Positions 697 to 10,051 of a DNA stretch of 19,996 bases are shown piece by piece; positions within the stretch are counted from its first letter, which is position 1, and the number at the start of each line of letters is the position of its first letter. The notes under the pieces are model-generated. The model did not search any database, was not told the origin of the DNA, and worked only from the letters and a program-made list of their open reading frames with translations. The stretch comes from a virus. The translations under genes and the position numbers were made by a program. Location: the UHGV virus genome UHGV-0195695; one strand, given 5' to 3'.

Positions 697-852
697 TTTG
701 CGGGTTATTTTGGGGCGTTTGCGGGTTATTTGGGATGTTTTGCGGGTTATGCGATGCTTGAATAATGAACAGTGCATTTTGCAACATATTGATACTAAAG
801 AACAAAAAATAGTTAGCACGCTAAGATAACCCGGTAACCCGCATAACCCGCA
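697..852. repeat. Iteron cluster copy 1 (ori/crr-like): direct GCGGGTTAT repeats, AT-rich spacer, inverted TAACCCGC repeats
   Basis: TTTGCGGGTTAT at 697-708, 718-729 and 739-750 (21-bp phasing); AT-rich spacer 760-825; inverted copies TAACCCGG/TAACCCGCA at 827-852. Same motif and architecture as the cluster at 9922-10051. Confidence 0.6.
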
Positions 853-1236
853 CTGTTTTGTATATATATACGAAAAATTGCATTCAGGAGGGGGGATCGA
901 AATCCCTACAACCCATTGCTTATGGGACCGCCGCCTCGTCAAATTTTTACACCCGCGAAATAAAAAAATACTTCACGCTGGTGGGCATGATGCTGATATG
1001 GGAGGGTTCCATAACGCCACCATTCGAAACTATGCAAATCTGCATAGAAAAGGGGATGCCTGATACAATACCCTCGCCCGATAAAATCACACCGATAAAC
1101 TCATCTGCCACGAGTAGAAAGAGCGAACGAACCCGATACGCAGTAATGCTTGTCGGGTCCAGCTTTTTAAGGCGGCTGTAGATATCAGGCCATCCGTGAT
1201 CATCCACCAGCGTAATTGCTGAACGCTTTAAAAAAA

Positions 1237-1260
1237 CGTGTACATAAGGGTGTACATAAT
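1237..1260. repeat. TGTACATA tandem site, copy A (candidate integrase arm-type or operator site)
   Basis: CGTGTACATAAGGGTGTACATAAT; 22/24 identical to 1449-1472 about 210 bp downstream. Confidence 0.55.
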
Positions 1261-1378
1261 CAAAAACCGCATTAGAAAGAAACCAGCTACAATGCGGCAT
1301 TGAAGCCAACACTCTACAAACAGATTCAGAATATCGAATAAGCTATCAGTAAAAATCACCAAGCAGCAAAAAAACACA

Positions 1379-1406
1379 AAGCCCGCGAAATGTCGGGCTT
1401 TTTTGT
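1379..1406 (+). terminator. Putative intrinsic terminator
   Basis: Stem GCCCG(1381-1385)/CGGGC(1394-1398) with 8-nt loop, extended by AA/TT, followed by a T-run at 1399-1405. Confidence 0.5.
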
Positions 1407-1448
1407 TATCATGAGCTATCATAACGACGCAACAAAGCGCACAATGTG

Positions 1449-1501
1449 CGTGTACATAGAGGTGTACATAATGACTTTCATGTACATTGCTTTATGTACA
1501 C
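1449..1501. promoter_or_regulatory. TGTACATA site array immediately upstream of the integrase start (copy B plus two extra half-sites)
   Basis: CGTGTACATAGAGGTGTACATAAT at 1449-1472, then ATGTACAT at 1480-1487 and ATGTACAC at 1494-1501; it ends about 30 bp before the int ATG at 1530. Confidence 0.5.
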
Positions 1502-7221: not shown

Positions 7222-7471
7222 TGAACGATTTATTCTTCTGGAGCAAAAATTCAGCGAAGCGCCAAAAAATGAAATTGATGCTCTTTTGCATATCGCGAAT
7301 ATGCTAAAAGTAGCAACGTTCCTTATAGTTTCGAATCTGGAGCATGAAACGGCGTTAGATATACTGAACAGTGCTGTCGATTATTCTGAATATATTGCCG
7401 AGGATAAATACAGGCAATTACCAGATTTGTTAGCCCATAAATATAAAGAAGAACCTCACACCGGGAAATAA
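7214..7471 (+). CDS. Hypothetical protein (85 aa)
   Basis: ORF translationally coupled to the upstream gene (ATG 7214 overlaps the stop at 7219-7221); AT-rich; no recognised motif. Confidence 0.45.
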   Translation: MRDERFILLEQKFSEAPKNEIDALLHIANMLKVATFLIVSNLEHETALDILNSAVDYSEYIAEDKYRQLPDLLAHKYKEEPHTGK

Positions 7472-7473
7472 AC

Positions 7474-7776
7474 ATGAAGAAGATTAAATTTACTGGCTTA
7501 AATGCCAGCGGACAGACTCACCCGAAAATCAGGATCGGGGATATTTTCCGGGATAAATATGGCGACAGCGTGGTTATTAATTCCGTGTATGAACGGCACA
7601 TTACATACCGCCGCGCAGGGTACGACTATGACTGTGTGATGCCCGTTCATCAGTTCCGGCGTGATTTTTCACTGGTATGTGCAGCACCACGCAGTAAGCC
7701 CACCAGTAAAGAGAAAGCACGGGCAAATATTCAGGTAATAAAGAACATGATTAACGCATTCAGGGGCAAGAAATGA
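7474..7776 (+). CDS. Hypothetical small protein (100 aa), possibly DUF4222-like
   Basis: ORF in operon context; its stop overlaps the start of the replication gene (ATGA). Motif IRIGDIFRDKYGDSVVINSV is loosely reminiscent of small prophage DUF proteins. Confidence 0.45.
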   Translation: MKKIKFTGLNASGQTHPKIRIGDIFRDKYGDSVVINSVYERHITYRRAGYDYDCVMPVHQFRRDFSLVCAAPRSKPTSKEKARANIQVIKNMINAFRGKK

Positions 7777-9899
7777 AACGCGCACCGAATTTAAAGCACC
7801 AGCCGAAAGACAAAATGACGGAGGTGATTATCTTTGCGGGTAGTGATGCCTGGGCACATGCGAAAGAGTGGAGCGAATGGGCCGGAAAGCATATTGCGGC
7901 AGATGATACACATCCAGTTATTCTTGGACCGGAACAACTGGCGAGTCTGGCAGACACGCAAATCATCGACAAAGGGCGCTATTACGTGCGCGTTTATCGT
8001 GCTGGTGAAATATCAGAGCAGCACCTTACACAGATAGCGACACTGCTTGCAGTGGCGGGTGTGAAGGAGGCGCGTTGCTACCGCAGCTTTGTTGATCAGC
8101 AGCCGGAGGACTGGACACCGCGCATGGCTGGACTGAAGGATGATGCGGAACACGGTAACAGTCTGGTGATCAACCTTCCGGCGAAGACAAATTTCACCGG
8201 AAATTATGATGACGAATTAAAGCCTCGTGTTGAAAGTCGCGTCGATGGTGTTTTCTGGGTAACGCCCAAAGTGGACAAGCAGTCAGGCGAAATTATCCGG
8301 CCTGAGACGTGGTTATGTTCTCCGCTTGAACTACTGGGAACAGGAACAATCGGAAAAGAGCATTACCGCGTAATGCGCTGGAAAAAACCAGCAAACCATG
8401 AGGTCATTACAATGGCGGTCCCGTGCGGAGGCATTGGTGACCGTGACGGCTGGCGGTTGCTGAAAGACCACGGTCTTAACGTGACGACCAACGGCAAATA
8501 CAGAGCCATCCTGGCTGACTGGATGCAGTTAAGCGGAAGTCATGAAGAATGGCAGCTAAGCACTACAACGGGCTGGCATTTTGGTGCGTACATCATGCCG
8601 GATGGTTCGGTCATTGGTGAATCAGAGAAACCCATCCTGTTTACCGGAAAAACTGCCGCAGTTAATGGCTATTCCGTGGCGGGAACAGCGGAGGGCTGGC
8701 GCGATACCGTGGCACGGCTGGCTGGTGGTAATCCGTCCATGATGCTGGGTGTGGCGGTATCGCTATCCGCACCATTAATCGGGCTGGTGGGTGCTGACGG
8801 CTTCGGGGTTCATCTTTTTGAGCAATCATCAGCAGGTAAAACCACCACACAGAACATTGCATCAAGTTTATGGGGAGAGCCGGACGCGCAACGGCTGACC
8901 TGGTACGGAACGGCGTTAGGTATCGCCAACGAGGCCGAAGCACATAATGACGGGCTGTTACCCCTGGATGAAATAGGCCAGGCCGGAAACGCGCGGGAGG
9001 TGTCCACGTCAGCCTATACGCTGTTTAACGGTTCCGGGAAATTACAGGGGGCGAAGGACGGCGGCAACAGGGAGATAAAACACTGGCGCACGGTGGCAAT
9101 CAGCACCGGAGAAATGGACGTTGAAACATTCCTCAAAACGGAAGGGATAAAAATTAAAGCGGGGCAGCTTGTCCGTCTGCTTAACGTGCCGATGGAAAAG
9201 GCCTCGCAGTTTCACGAATACAGCACCGGAAAGGCGCACGCAGACGCGTTAAAAGATGCCTGGACAGAAAATCACGGGGCGGCAGGTCGTGAGTGGGTTA
9301 AATGGCTGGCAGGTCACCAGCAGGAGGCAAAGGACGCGGTAAAGGCATGTCGCGAGCGGTGGCGCAACCTGATACCGGAGAGCTACGGCGAGCAGGTTCA
9401 CCGTGTGGGGGAAAGATTCGCCGTACTGGAGGCCGCGCTTGTGCTTTCCGGTCATGTTACAGGCTGGGATGTTCAGGCGTGCCGTGATGCAGTTCAGCAT
9501 AACTTTAATGCCTGGGTGAAGGAATTCGGCACGGGCAACAGGGAATTTAAACAGATGGTTGAACAGGCTGAGGCGTTTTTGTCGTCGTTCGGGTTCAGTC
9601 GATACCTTCCCTATCCAAACAGCGACGAGCGTGATTTACCGATTAAAGACCTTGCCGGATACAGAAAGGGGAGTATCAGAAACGAAGATGACGAGTTCCG
9701 TTTTTACACGTTCCCGCATGTGTTTGAGGGTGAGATAGCACAGGGATTTAATCCGTCTCACTTTGCCCGCGCGTTGAGTGCTGCCGGAATGCTGGAAGCG
9801 GGAGGCGACCGCCGTTACAAGAAAAAGGCGCTCGGCAGGATTGGCGGGAAGCAGCATATTTTTTACGTGCTGATGTTCCAGCCTGAAGCAGAAGATTAA
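7773..9899 (+). CDS. Replication initiator: DUF927-type primase/SF3-helicase-like P-loop NTPase (708 aa)
   Basis: Walker A-like LFEQSSAGKTT and Walker B-like GLLPLDEIGQ in the central region; large protein immediately upstream of an iteron cluster; position matches the pri-rep / alpha-type gene of P4- and PICI-like elements. Confidence 0.8.
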   Translation: MKRAPNLKHQPKDKMTEVIIFAGSDAWAHAKEWSEWAGKHIAADDTHPVILGPEQLASLADTQIIDKGRYYVRVYRAGEISEQHLTQIATLLAVAGVKEARCYRSFVDQQPEDWTPRMAGLKDDAEHGNSLVINLPAKTNFTGNYDDELKPRVESRVDGVFWVTPKVDKQSGEIIRPETWLCSPLELLGTGTIGKEHYRVMRWKKPANHEVITMAVPCGGIGDRDGWRLLKDHGLNVTTNGKYRAILADWMQLSGSHEEWQLSTTTGWHFGAYIMPDGSVIGESEKPILFTGKTAAVNGYSVAGTAEGWRDTVARLAGGNPSMMLGVAVSLSAPLIGLVGADGFGVHLFEQSSAGKTTTQNIASSLWGEPDAQRLTWYGTALGIANEAEAHNDGLLPLDEIGQAGNAREVSTSAYTLFNGSGKLQGAKDGGNREIKHWRTVAISTGEMDVETFLKTEGIKIKAGQLVRLLNVPMEKASQFHEYSTGKAHADALKDAWTENHGAAGREWVKWLAGHQQEAKDAVKACRERWRNLIPESYGEQVHRVGERFAVLEAALVLSGHVTGWDVQACRDAVQHNFNAWVKEFGTGNREFKQMVEQAEAFLSSFGFSRYLPYPNSDERDLPIKDLAGYRKGSIRNEDDEFRFYTFPHVFEGEIAQGFNPSHFARALSAAGMLEAGGDRRYKKKALGRIGGKQHIFYVLMFQPEAED

Positions 9900-9921
9900 C
9901 TTCCCTGTGTGAGGTAAAAAG

Positions 9922-10051
9922 TTGCGGGTTATGCGGGTTATCCTGTGTATAAGTTAATTAACTGCATGATTAAAAAGGAAATCAATAACCCGCACGTAAC
10001 CCGCAAAACGGCAGTTATAACCCGCAAATGTGCGATTGTAACCCGCAAAAT
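9922..10051. repeat. Iteron cluster copy 2 (candidate ori): direct GCGGGTTAT repeats, AT-rich spacer, four inverted TAACCCGCA repeats
   Basis: TTGCGGGTTATGCGGGTTAT at 9922-9941; AT-rich 9942-9984; ATAACCCGCA at 9985-9994, GTAACCCGCAAAA at 9996-10008, ATAACCCGCAAA at 10017-10028, GTAACCCGCAAAA at 10039-10051. Confidence 0.7.

What the first reader, a model, noticed from the sequence alone, without database searches (positions are those of the whole stretch)
697..10051. Two iteron clusters of identical architecture about 9.2 kb apart (ori/crr-like)
Seen directly: cluster 1 (697-852) and cluster 2 (9922-10051) both consist of direct GCGGGTTAT repeats, an AT-rich spacer, then inverted TAACCCGCA repeats. 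Cluster 2 lies immediately after the primase/helicase-like gene, the usual ori position. Established knowledge: phage P4 replication needs two separate repeat-bearing sites, ori and crr, both bound by the alpha primase-helicase. Cluster 1 lies upstream of int, so either the element extends left of int, or a second related element abuts this one, or cluster 1 is a regulatory site using the same DNA-binding specificity.
Basis: partly seen in the sequence, partly recalled or inferred. Interest (0 to 1): 0.5.

Follow-up and report, generated by a model that had tools for sequence, protein, structure and literature searches.

The report
Split replication origin of phage satellite
The two repeat clusters are matching sets of binding sites for the island's own replication helicase: the ordinary origin beside the helicase gene, and a second origin-like unit that usually sits right next to it in related phage-satellite islands but here lies at the far end of the 20-kb element.

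Summary
There are 12 copies of (TTT)GCGGGTTAY in two clusters, and the motif count exceeds every one of 200 shuffles. The window is a circular permutation of a 20-kb PICI-type island that sits between yicC and dinD in E. coli strain 20. Cluster 1 therefore belongs to the same element, about 470 bp inside its right end.

Cluster 2 (unit A) is the canonical PICI/SaPI origin: iterons flanking an AT-rich spacer directly 3' of a DUF927 pri-rep gene homologous to SaPI Rep. Cluster 1 (unit B) mirrors A. It has 21-bp-spaced iterons, a spacer with an IHF consensus, three abutting iterons, and a conserved T4-(TA)n-A4 tract.

All 18 relatives with a cognate Rep carry both units, across at least 6 iteron sequences. 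The iteron class tracks the last ~108 residues of Rep. In 13 of the 18, B abuts A. In 5, including this window, B lies 1.9-10.8 kb away.

B is therefore a cognate second Rep-binding, origin-like unit. It is functionally reminiscent of P4 crr, but the replicon is not a P4 family member. Whether B fires, enhances, regulates transcription or controls copy number is untested. Some recombinant islands keep an orphan B.

Verdict: a new variant of a known kind, of moderate interest.

The parts
700..750 (+). Unit B (cluster 1), spaced array: three GCGGGTTAT iterons at 700, 721 and 742 with a 21-bp step
   Evidence: E. coli strain 20 has a fourth 21-bp unit here.
751..825 (.). Unit B spacer (67% AT). 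It contains one of only two exact IHF consensus matches in the window (782-794, consensus on the - strand: TATCAATATGTTG).
   Evidence: Its least stable 30-mer ranks 45th of 19967. An exact IHF consensus is also present in the B spacers of L002, L004, L005, L006, L007 and in 25 of 25 IMG/VR variants.
826..851 (-). Unit B abutting array: three iterons at 826, 834 and 843 with 8-9-bp steps
856..877 (.). T4-G-(TA)5-CG-A5 tract immediately outside the abutting iterons of unit B. It is conserved in relatives whatever the iteron class, and (TA)n varies from 5 to 8 copies.
855..1000 (.). Conserved non-coding right flank of unit B. It is shared by all split-type islands irrespective of integrase and iteron class. 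Its function is unknown.
1238..1259 (+). Putative integrase arm-type sites, GTGTACATAA x2, on one arm of attP
   Evidence: Read from the sequence. The same decamer pair recurs at 1450-1471.
1321..1341 (.). att core (attP in this circular form). This 21-bp overlap is present at both island ends in strain 20 and equals the 3' end of yicC.
   Evidence: The attP/int module is 99% identical in the circular 12-kb record L018.
1446..2798 (+). Tyrosine integrase (RefSeq start corresponds to window position 1530)
7773..9899 (+). pri-rep: a 708-aa DUF927 primase-helicase. Residues ~601-708 form the iteron-specificity module.
9924..9941 (+). Unit A (cluster 2) abutting array: two iterons with a 9-bp step
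9942..9984 (.). Unit A AT-rich spacer (72% AT), the putative melting site
   Evidence: rank 112 of 19967. Published PICI ori model.
9985..10046 (-). Unit A spaced array: four iterons at 9985, 9996, 10017 and 10038 with steps of 11, 21 and 21 bp

Best explanation
The window is the complete circular (excised or concatemer-unit) form of a ~20-kb PICI-type phage satellite. The two clusters are the two units of its Rep-recognition region.

Unit A (cluster 2) lies directly 3' of the pri-rep gene. It is the canonical PICI/SaPI origin, with iterons pointing inward across an AT-rich, easily melted spacer.

Unit B (cluster 1) is a second, mirror-image origin-like unit built from the same iterons. It consists of three to four 21-bp-spaced copies, an IHF-type bend site, three abutting copies, and a T4-(TA)n-A4 tract.

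Shown here:
- Both units belong to one element.
- Both co-vary with the C-terminal ~108 residues of Rep.
- The A+B architecture is conserved across Enterobacterales.
- B is contiguous with A in most relatives but 1.9-10.8 kb away in this lineage.

Inferred:
- The C-terminal domain of the Rep hexamer binds the iterons of both units, as shown for SaPI Reps.
- B takes part in replication. It may act as a second helicase-loading or melting site, or it may cooperate with A through Rep-Rep contacts (DNA looping), much as crr does for P4 ori.
- Moving B to the other end of the island has been tolerated because this action does not depend on distance.
For: One element:
- Window 1321-19996 equals strain-20 chromosome positions 14001-32676 of L001 at 100% identity. 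Window 1-1341 equals L001 32677-34038. A 21-bp att core is duplicated at the 3' end of yicC.
- L065 runs continuously across the window's end/start junction.

Canonical ori:
- Rep is DUF927 and homologous to SaPI Rep 8TCH (E 1e-14) and Cch 5DGK.
- The literature states that PICI oris lie immediately 3' of rep, with two iteron sets flanking an AT-rich region. It also reports that the EcCICFT073 pri-ori drives plasmid replication (PMC6092414).
- SaPI Rep reads iterons with its C-terminal winged-helix domain and probably loads two hexamers (PMC9371898; PMC7581432).

Covariation:
- 18 loci with a cognate Rep all have A and B built from the same iteron, across at least 6 classes: GCGGGTTAY, ACTTGTCCCA, TTGAGGCAAC, GTGGGTTAY, (T/G)TGGTTCA, CCGGTTCA and GGGAYAA.
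- L004 and L006 Rep are 94-95% identical to the window Rep over aa 150-600 but only 34% over aa 601-708, and they use a different iteron in both units.
- The B flanks (457-518, 855-1000, 1146-1211) are 83-92% conserved between the window and L004/L006. The B unit between those flanks has been replaced by one matching the resident Rep and A.

Architecture and origin-like features:
- Step lengths are constant at 9 bp for abutting copies and 11/21/21 bp for spaced copies.
- Both spacers are among the least stable 0.2-0.6% of 30-mers in the window.
- The B spacer carries an exact IHF consensus.
- The T4-(TA)n-A4 tract is conserved across iteron classes.

Both arrangements are common: 13 adjacent and 5 split among the 18 loci. 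In an A-anchored IMG/VR sample, 7 were adjacent and 7 split at 7.7-10.6 kb.
Against: - There is no experimental evidence that Rep binds either cluster, or that B is needed for or used in replication.
- Four IMG/VR islands (three independent: L040/L043, L039, L022) carry a GCGGGTTAT-type B beside terL but encode a different Rep with different iterons after it and no cognate A. B can therefore persist without its Rep, so it is not universally essential in cis.
- In about half of the adjacent-type loci, and in L018, a gene starts 15-40 bp after the (TA)n tract (TATAAT in L018). That fits a promoter role equally well.
- The predicted Rep C-terminal structure was of low confidence (pLDDT 67) and gave no significant fold match. 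The winged-helix assignment therefore rests on analogy.
- B always keeps the same orientation and always lies downstream of A. That is not what a fully position- and orientation-independent enhancer predicts, although common descent could explain it.
Confidence: 0.6

Rival explanations
1. Unit B is a Rep-controlled promoter/operator rather than part of the origin. The (TA)n tract would be the -10 element. The three abutting iterons would occupy the -35 region, so Rep occupancy would switch the downstream genes on or off, coupling expression to the replication phase.
For: - In L018 the tract reads TATAAT and is followed by an RBS and the perC ATG 15 nt later.
- In L003, L005, L007, L011, L013 and L015, at least four different genes start 15-40 nt after (TA)n.
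- No recognisable -35 is present, which would fit dependence on an activator.
Against: - With a -10 in the (TA)n tract the 5' UTR would be only ~8-12 nt in most cases.
- A simple sigma-70 scan finds no promoter here.
- In the window, L002, L004, L006 and all 34 IMG/VR split-type loci no ORF follows B. No conserved RNA structure or Rfam family is detectable in the conserved flank.
- A + strand terminator (1378-1401) lies before int.
- Six to seven iterons plus an IHF site arranged as a mirror image of the ori is more than an operator needs.
- PICI genes are described as one rightward transcription unit, so read-through from upstream would suffice (PMC6092414).
Confidence: 0.18
2. Unit B is a negative copy-control or incompatibility element. 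It would act as a Rep sink that handcuffs or titrates Rep, like P1 incA or extra iterons in iteron plasmids. In recombinant islands that lack the cognate Rep, it would be a decoy that interferes with competing islands of the GCGGGTTAT class.
For: - B uses the same iterons as the ori but lies outside the minimal rep-proximal position.
- The iteron copy number in B is polymorphic, 3 versus 4.
- Intact orphan B units exist in islands with unrelated Reps.
- The function would be distance-independent, consistent with both adjacent and split layouts.
Against: - PICIs replicate in a burst after induction, so there is no obvious benefit from throttling copy number.
- B has its own easily melted spacer, IHF site and (TA)n tract, which a pure titration site does not need.
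- Some orphan copies are decaying: L022 keeps only 1 of 3 abutting iterons and L039 has lost a spaced one.
Confidence: 0.1
3. Cluster 1 is a functionless relic: a duplicated or translocated piece of the origin carried along by module shuffling.
For: - Orphan B units in chimeric islands show that B is moved around by recombination together with the right-end module.
- Split arrangements were seen only in Escherichia.
Against: - A+B is conserved in every cognate locus examined, across at least 9 genera and at least 6 iteron classes, with identical step lengths.
- B was replaced as a cassette to match the resident Rep, within otherwise conserved flanks.
- Non-iteron features (IHF consensus, T4-(TA)n-A4) are conserved.
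- At least two independent split events kept B intact (L018 versus the others).
Confidence: 0.07
4. Cluster 1 belongs to a second, neighbouring element, or is a packaging (cos/pac) site of the capsid-forming relatives.
For: - In the raw window cluster 1 lies upstream of int.
- In cf-PICI relatives of the split type, B lies just after terL.
Against: - In strain 20 a single island flanked by yicC and dinD holds both clusters.
- B co-varies with Rep, not with terminase.
- B is present in islands without any terminase (window, L004, L006, L018).
- In adjacent-type cf-PICIs such as L003, B sits next to rep, far from terS/terL.
Confidence: 0.02

Closest known systems
SaPI / PICI Rep-ori replicon (Ubeda et al. 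2007; Fillol-Salom et al. 2018, PMC6092414; Qiao et al. 2022, PMC9371898)
   Same: - The Rep helicase is homologous (DUF927; PDB 8TCH, E 1e-14).
- The ori lies immediately 3' of rep.
- Short iterons in two oppositely oriented sets flank an AT-rich melting region.
- Specificity resides in the C-terminal part of Rep.
- The island context matches: int-alpA-pri-rep with unidirectional genes.
   Different: The published description is of one iteron/AT-rich/iteron unit. Here a second, mirror-image unit with its own spacer, IHF consensus and (TA)n tract is conserved, and it can lie kilobases from rep. I found no description of this in the searchable literature.
Bacteriophage P4 ori / crr bound by the alpha primase-helicase (own knowledge: Flensburg & Calendar 1987; Ziegelin et al. 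1993, 1995)
   Same: - Two separated clusters of the same iteron are bound by the C-terminal domain of a primase-helicase encoded by a satellite.
- The distance between clusters is on the kilobase scale.
- The host range is the same and the elements are related P4-type-integrase islands.
   Different: - The Rep belongs to a different family, with no P4 hit at E<=1e-5.
- The iteron is different.
- In most relatives the two units are contiguous.
- A requirement for the second site is unproven here.
- Genuine P4-alpha-like Reps with TGTTCACC iterons do occur as alternative replication modules in the same island backbone (L040).
Multi-site iteron replicons: R6K gamma/alpha/beta origins with pi, P1 incC/incA, EBV oriP DS/FR with EBNA1 (own knowledge)
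   Same: One initiator binds two or more separated clusters of its sites. The distal cluster acts as enhancer, second origin, copy-control or auxiliary element, and communicates with the other cluster by protein-mediated looping.
   Different: These initiators are not helicases. Those systems serve stable plasmid maintenance, whereas a PICI replicates in a burst after helper induction. No sequence or protein homology was found.
Capsid-forming PICIs (cf-PICI; Alqurainy et al., bioRxiv 10.1101/2022.09.08.507074)
   Same: The closest relatives (L002, L003 and many IMG/VR loci) are cf-PICIs. They share the int-alpA-Icd-DUF4222-DUF927-ori-ssb-proQ-perC module and the same iterons.
   Different: This island lacks the capsid/protease/portal/HNH/terS/terL module. 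In its place it carries an epsilon15-type internal virion/ejection-protein block.

Membership tests
PICI/SaPI-type Rep-ori replicon | Initiator is a self-loading Rep helicase of the SaPI Rep / Cch (DUF927) type, often fused to a primase | tested here: met
   - Pfam DUF927, E 1.7e-46.
- phmmer against PDB: 8TCH 'pathogenicity island protein' E 1.3e-14 and 5DGK Cch E 8e-4.
- PHROG 'DNA primase' E 4e-174.
PICI/SaPI-type Rep-ori replicon | Origin lies immediately 3' of rep and consists of two oppositely oriented iteron sets flanking an AT-rich region | tested here: met
   Cluster 2 starts 25 bp after the rep stop: 2 iterons, a 43-bp spacer of 72% AT, then 4 iterons. The definition is taken from PMC6092414 and PMC9371898.
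PICI/SaPI-type Rep-ori replicon | Iteron specificity is determined by the Rep C-terminal domain | tested here: met
   Comparative evidence only. The iteron class tracks aa 601-708 and not aa 150-600: 95% versus 34% identity for L004/L006. Direct binding was not tested. The structural model was inconclusive.
PICI/SaPI-type Rep-ori replicon | The rep-ori segment drives autonomous replication | not testable with these tools
   Indirect support only. The window is a circular permutation. A related 12.15-kb island is deposited as a circular plasmid record (L018). The published EcCICFT073 assay is in PMC6092414.
PICI (Gram-negative) island | int, alpA, pri-rep, unidirectional genes, specific att site, size 10-20 kb | tested here: met
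   The att core is the 3' end of yicC. Helper-phage induction was not testable.
Capsid-forming PICI (cf-PICI) | Own major capsid, prohead protease, portal, head-tail connectors, HNH, TerS and TerL | tested here: not met
   None of these genes is in the window. The relatives L002 and L003 have them.
P4 ori/crr system | Initiator is a P4 alpha-type primase-helicase | tested here: not met
   tblastn of Rep against 50,697 phage records found no P4 or P4-like hit. By contrast, L040 carries a different 604-aa Rep with TGTTCACC iterons. Identifying that Rep as P4-like rests on my recollection of the P4 iteron sequence.
P4 ori/crr system | Two separate clusters of the same iteron on one replicon | tested here: met
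P4 ori/crr system | The second cluster (crr) is required in cis for replication | not testable with these tools
   Orphan B units in islands with foreign Reps argue against a universal requirement.
Iteron-plasmid copy control (handcuffing/titration loci such as P1 incA) | An extra iteron cluster lowers copy number or exerts incompatibility | not testable with these tools
   The only evidence is circumstantial: iteron number polymorphism and orphan copies.

The most novel reading that the evidence does not exclude
The DUF927 PICI origin is intrinsically two-part and separable. Each mirror-image unit (asymmetric: abutting iterons on one side, 21-bp-phased iterons on the other) would load one Rep hexamer in one direction. 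Contiguous A+B would then give a bidirectional origin. The natural split layouts (1.9-10.8 kb) would be replicons that fire from two unidirectional half-origins on opposite sides of the circle, or that need Rep-mediated looping across the whole cargo region. Orphan B units would then act as decoys against rival satellites.
Probability: 0.15. Interest if true: 0.7.

Novelty: new variant of a known kind. Interest (0 to 1): 0.5.

Why it matters
PICI and SaPI origins are textbook examples of a single iteron/AT-rich/iteron unit read by a self-loading helicase. A conserved second unit would change how the origin of this large family is drawn. That family holds matches in ~2,000 of 5,426 complete E. 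coli genomes.

- Nature has placed the second unit anywhere from 50 bp to 10.8 kb from the first, which amounts to a ready-made set of natural spacing mutants.
- It gives a simple genetic handle (delete or move B) for asking how SF3/MCM-like Rep helicases are loaded and oriented.
- Matched A/B/Rep-C-terminus cassettes define incompatibility or specificity groups among co-resident satellites.
- This matters practically for engineering PICI-based delivery vectors, where omitting B might cripple replication.

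Tried and rejected
1. A second abutting element: rejected. A single island in strain 20 holds both clusters.
2. tRNA-linked att or a tRNA relic near 880-910: ARAGORN finds nothing.
3. Known RNA families in the window: none at gathering thresholds.
4. A structured sRNA in the conserved flank 855-1000: RNAalifold gives only -7.9 kcal/mol and no compensatory pairs across 11 variants.
5. A sigma-70 promoter at cluster 1 or 2: the scan finds none at B, and only one weak - strand match inside A.
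6. The ORF at 947-1312 (-), annotated as hypothetical in strain 20: judged spurious. It crosses attR, and L004/L006 carry a 145-bp indel inside it.
7. The flank as shared integrase arm sites: rejected, because Int of L004 is only 27% identical. The real arm-type repeats appear to be GTGTACATAA at 1238-1259 and 1450-1471.
8. Winged-helix fold for the Rep C-terminus: the AlphaFold model reached pLDDT 67 and the best Foldseek match was E 0.36 (TcpK wHTH). This is inconclusive.
9. L067 as a possible A-without-B case: it is the same island truncated before B.
10. Locating EcCICFT073 in CFT073, to check whether the experimentally tested ori contains both units: the region I fetched was a lambdoid prophage and I did not pursue it.
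11. Packaging-site idea: rejected (see rival explanations).
12. Literature searches for a described second PICI origin unit found nothing. P4 crr facts could not be sourced from the library and rest on my own knowledge.

Full report

Yes. GCGGGTTAT occurs on the + strand at 700, 721 and 742, with exact 21-bp steps. On the - strand it occurs at 826, 834 and 843, abutting, two of these with one mismatch. That is cluster 1. Cluster 2 has two abutting + strand copies at 9924 and 9933, and four - strand copies at 9985, 9996, 10017 and 10038 with steps of 11, 21 and 21 bp.

Allowing one mismatch there are 18 matches against 4.2 expected, and none of 200 dinucleotide-preserving shuffles reaches 18. 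Twelve matches lie in the two clusters. The other six are scattered singles. Aligning the copies extends the consensus to TTTGCGGGTTAY.

Cluster 2 starts 25 bp after the stop codon of a 708-aa DUF927 protein. The two clusters share polarity, with copies pointing inward across an AT-rich spacer. Their array types are mirrored, however. Cluster 1 is spaced/spacer/abutting and cluster 2 is abutting/spacer/spaced.

**2. What is the element, and where does cluster 1 sit?**

The window matches a 20-kb island in E. coli strain 20 as a circular permutation:
- Window 1321-19996 equals L001 14001-32676 at 100% identity.
- Window 1-1341 equals L001 32677-34038.
- The shared 21 bp (window 1321-1341) is present at both island ends and forms the 3' end of yicC. 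The island is bounded by yicC and dinD.

An IMG/VR contig (L065) runs continuously across the window's end/start junction. A related 12,152-bp island (L018) is deposited as a circular 'plasmid' with the same attP/int module at 99% identity. The window is thus the whole element in circular form, either excised or as one concatemer unit.

Cluster 1 belongs to the same island. It lies ~470 bp inside the right end (attR). In the integrated form it is 10.8 kb downstream of cluster 2, and 9.2 kb away along the other arc of the circle.

Gene content, all on the + strand:
- P4-type tyrosine integrase
- alpA
- Rha, AntA and Bro regulators
- an Icd-like domain
- DUF4222
- DUF927 pri-rep
- SSB
- ProQ/FinO
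- a PerC pseudogene
- four cargo ORFs

**3. Identity of Rep and of cluster 2**

Rep is homologous to a staphylococcal pathogenicity-island Rep (PDB 8TCH, E 1.3e-14) and to the SCCmec helicase Cch (5DGK). It shows no similarity to any P4 record among 50,697 phage genomes.

The literature supports the ori assignment:
[quoted passage not shown] A pri-ori fragment of EcCICFT073 replicates a ts plasmid (PMC6092414).

Cluster 2, here called unit A, is therefore an ordinary, already-known kind of origin.

**4. What is cluster 1? Comparative evidence**

I fetched relatives from E. coli genomes (L002-L005, L018) and from other genera (L006-L017: Escherichia albertii, Winslowiella, Cedecea, Rahnella, Pantoea, Citrobacter, Pectobacterium, Tenebrionibacter, Apirhabdus).

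Every one of the 18 loci with a cognate DUF927 Rep has the same two units:
- Unit A: 2-3 abutting iterons (9-bp step), a 45-65-bp AT-rich spacer, then 3-4 opposite iterons (steps 11/21/21).
- Unit B: 2-4 iterons with a 21-bp step, a 40-95-bp spacer, then 3 abutting opposite iterons.

B is followed by a tract of the form GTTTTG(T)TTATATATACGAAAA whatever the iteron sequence.

At least six different iteron sequences are used, and within each island A and B always use the same one. The iteron class follows the last ~108 residues of Rep and not the rest of the protein. L004 and L006 Rep are 94-95% identical to the window Rep over residues 150-600 but only 34% identical over 601-708, and they use ACTTGTCCCA in both units. 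L007 and L016 are 67% identical in the tail and use GTGGGTTAY, one base away from GCGGGTTAY.

The sequences flanking B (window 457-518, 855-1000, 1146-1211) are 83-92% identical between the window and L004/L006. The B unit between those flanks has been exchanged for one that matches the resident Rep and A. This is strong comparative evidence that B is a functional, cognate Rep-binding locus.

**5. Adjacent versus split layouts**

In 13 of the 18 loci B follows A directly, so the whole A+B region fits within ~330 bp after rep. This group includes the O157:H7 capsid-forming PICI (L003), which has the same GCGGGTTAT iteron as the window.

In five loci B is displaced:
- window: 10.8 kb
- L002: 7.8 kb
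- L004 and L006: 2.3 kb
- L018: 1.9 kb

An IMG/VR scan anchored on A found 7 adjacent and 7 split cases at 7.7-10.6 kb. The rest had too little sequence to tell. A scan anchored on the B flank found 34 further loci, all of the GCGGGTTAT class, with B typically 300-500 bp from the right end.

L018 has a different B flank, so at least two independent events separated the units. B always lies downstream of A in the same orientation. Adjacency is seen in all non-Escherichia genera and is probably ancestral.

**6. Features of B beyond the iterons**

- The B spacer holds one of only two exact IHF consensus matches in the 20-kb window (782-794). An exact consensus also lies in the B spacers of L002, L004, L005, L006 and L007 and in 25 of 25 IMG/VR variants. 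It is absent from the TTGGTTCA class.
- Both spacers are among the least stable duplex segments of the window, ranking 45 and 112 of 19,967 30-mers.
- Iteron number (3 versus 4) and (TA)n length (5-8) are polymorphic.

**7. Evidence that cuts the other way**

Three independent recombinant islands (L040/L043, L039, L022) keep a GCGGGTTAT-type B beside terL. They encode a different Rep with other iterons after it. In L040 the repeats are TGTTCACC, which I recall as the P4 type. None of them has a cognate A. Some of these B copies are decaying (L022, L039). B is therefore mobile along with the right-end module and is not indispensable for every island that carries it.

In about half of the adjacent-type loci, and in L018, a gene begins 15-40 nt after the (TA)n tract (TATAAT in L018). 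A promoter function therefore cannot be dismissed.

Against the promoter idea:
- The leader would be unusually short.
- No ORF follows B in any split-type island.
- No promoter is found by consensus scan.
- The conserved 135-bp flank shows no RNA-structure covariation and no Rfam match.

**8. Most likely mechanism**

*Shown:* there is one element. It has two cognate iteron units that co-vary with the Rep C-terminus. The mirror-image architecture is conserved. The distance between the units is variable.

*Inferred:* Rep hexamers use their C-terminal domains to bind both units. A is the canonical initiation site. B is a second origin-like assembly site, made of phased iterons, an IHF bend, abutting iterons and an easily opened T4-(TA)n-A4 tract. 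B either loads a second helicase or stimulates A through Rep-Rep looping. That action tolerates separation by the whole accessory region, which functionally resembles P4 ori/crr.

I put ~0.85 on 'both clusters are cognate Rep sites of one replicon' and ~0.6 on the full statement that B acts in replication. The rivals are a Rep-controlled promoter (0.18), a copy-control or decoy site (0.10), a relic (0.07), and another element or a packaging site (0.02).

**9. Comparison with known systems and novelty**

The element is a member of the PICI/SaPI Rep-ori replicon family: Rep homology, ori position, iteron/AT-rich/iteron layout, and C-terminal specificity by covariation. It is a PICI-type island but not a cf-PICI, because it has no capsid or terminase genes. 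It is not a member of the P4 ori/crr system, since both the Rep family and the iteron differ. It does share P4's two-site logic.

I found no description in the accessible literature of a conserved second unit or of its displacement. I rate it a new variant of a known kind. Cluster 2 is ordinary. The interest lies in cluster 1, which reveals a conserved, separable second half of the origin region.

**10. What led nowhere**

- The structure prediction for the Rep C-terminus was inconclusive: pLDDT 67, best Foldseek E 0.36.
- My attempt to locate the experimentally studied EcCICFT073 hit a lambdoid prophage instead.
- P4 crr facts could not be sourced from the paper library and rest on my own knowledge.

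Noticed in passing
window 12136-19797 (+): The cargo that replaces the cf-PICI capsid/terminase module is an epsilon15-type internal virion/ejection-protein block:
- The 843-aa ORF matches phrog_992 (E 1e-289) and has a lytic-transglycosylase-like segment (PDB 9vvp Gp29).
- The 686-aa ORF matches phrog_1145.
- The 925-aa ORF matches phrog_684 and is 88.9% identical over its full length to Salmonella phage epsilon15 16552-19323.

Pfam, PADLOC and NCBIfam gave no hits for these ORFs. A satellite that carries podovirus ejection proteins instead of capsid genes may point to an epsilon15-like helper.
   Followed up: partly
window 19868-19996 plus 1-66: This ~195-bp segment is absent from L065 and from most E. 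coli relatives, which match 67..19867. Window 1-91 is 95-99% identical to short stretches of several E. coli podophages (TL-2011b, phiv142-3, HEMP4, ZX5). It may be a small insertion or a mobile fragment.
   Followed up: no
window 855-1000 (and 1146-1211, 457-518): A conserved non-coding flank of unit B is shared by all split-type islands regardless of integrase (Int only 27% identical) and iteron class. It contains a polymorphic G-tract (GGAGGGGGG). It has no conserved ORF, no Rfam hit and no RNA covariation. Its function is unknown.
   Followed up: partly
L040 4390-4610; also L043, L039, L022: cf-PICI backbones with alternative replication modules. L040 encodes a 604-aa Rep that shares only its first ~138 aa with the window Rep. 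It is followed by nine TGTTCACC/GGTGAACA repeats, which I recall as the P4 type I iteron. These islands still carry an orphan GCGGGTTAT-type unit B next to terL.
   Followed up: partly
L018 (NZ_CP148430.1, 12,152 bp, circular): This record is deposited as an E. coli plasmid but is an excised PICI. It has int, attP, alpA and a TOPRIM+DUF927 Rep, with unit A at 6541-6650 and unit B at 8437-8555. A 'phage DNA ejection protein' fragment lies between the units. Its attP/int module is 99% identical to window 1230-4119.
   Followed up: partly
window 697-750 versus L001; window 861-870: Copy-number polymorphisms. Strain 20 has one extra 21-bp iteron unit in cluster 1 (4 versus 3). The (TA)n tract after unit B ranges from 5 to 8 repeats among IMG/VR variants.
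   Followed up: yes
window 1238-1259 and 1450-1471: Paired GTGTACATA(A/G) decamers lie on both sides of the att core (1321-1341). They are likely integrase arm-type sites of attP. A bidirectional terminator-like hairpin at 1378-1401 follows the reconstituted yicC 3' end.
   Followed up: no
window 9905-9914: The motif CTGTGTGAGG lies between the rep stop codon and the first iteron of unit A. Variants of it (CAYGTGTGAG-like) occupy the same place in relatives of every iteron class, so it is a class-independent element of unknown role.
   Followed up: no
L003 26700-27150: The adjacent-type O157:H7 cf-PICI has about five direct repeats resembling GGCGCGGTAACTGGTTGATATTTTCGA between terL and attR. 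This is the position where split-type islands carry unit B. It may be a packaging or other cis site.
   Followed up: no
window 6034-7221 (+) and 6363-6668 (-): A 395-aa + strand ORF has an Icd-like domain only at its C-terminus (aa 347-390). RefSeq instead annotates a truncated Icd pseudogene and a YlcI/YnfO gene on the opposite strand, so the gene calls here conflict.
   Followed up: no
L002 (NZ_OZ282453.1): The closest capsid-forming relative is inserted inside the terL gene of a resident prophage. This is a helper-embedded satellite configuration as described in PMC10111431.
   Followed up: no
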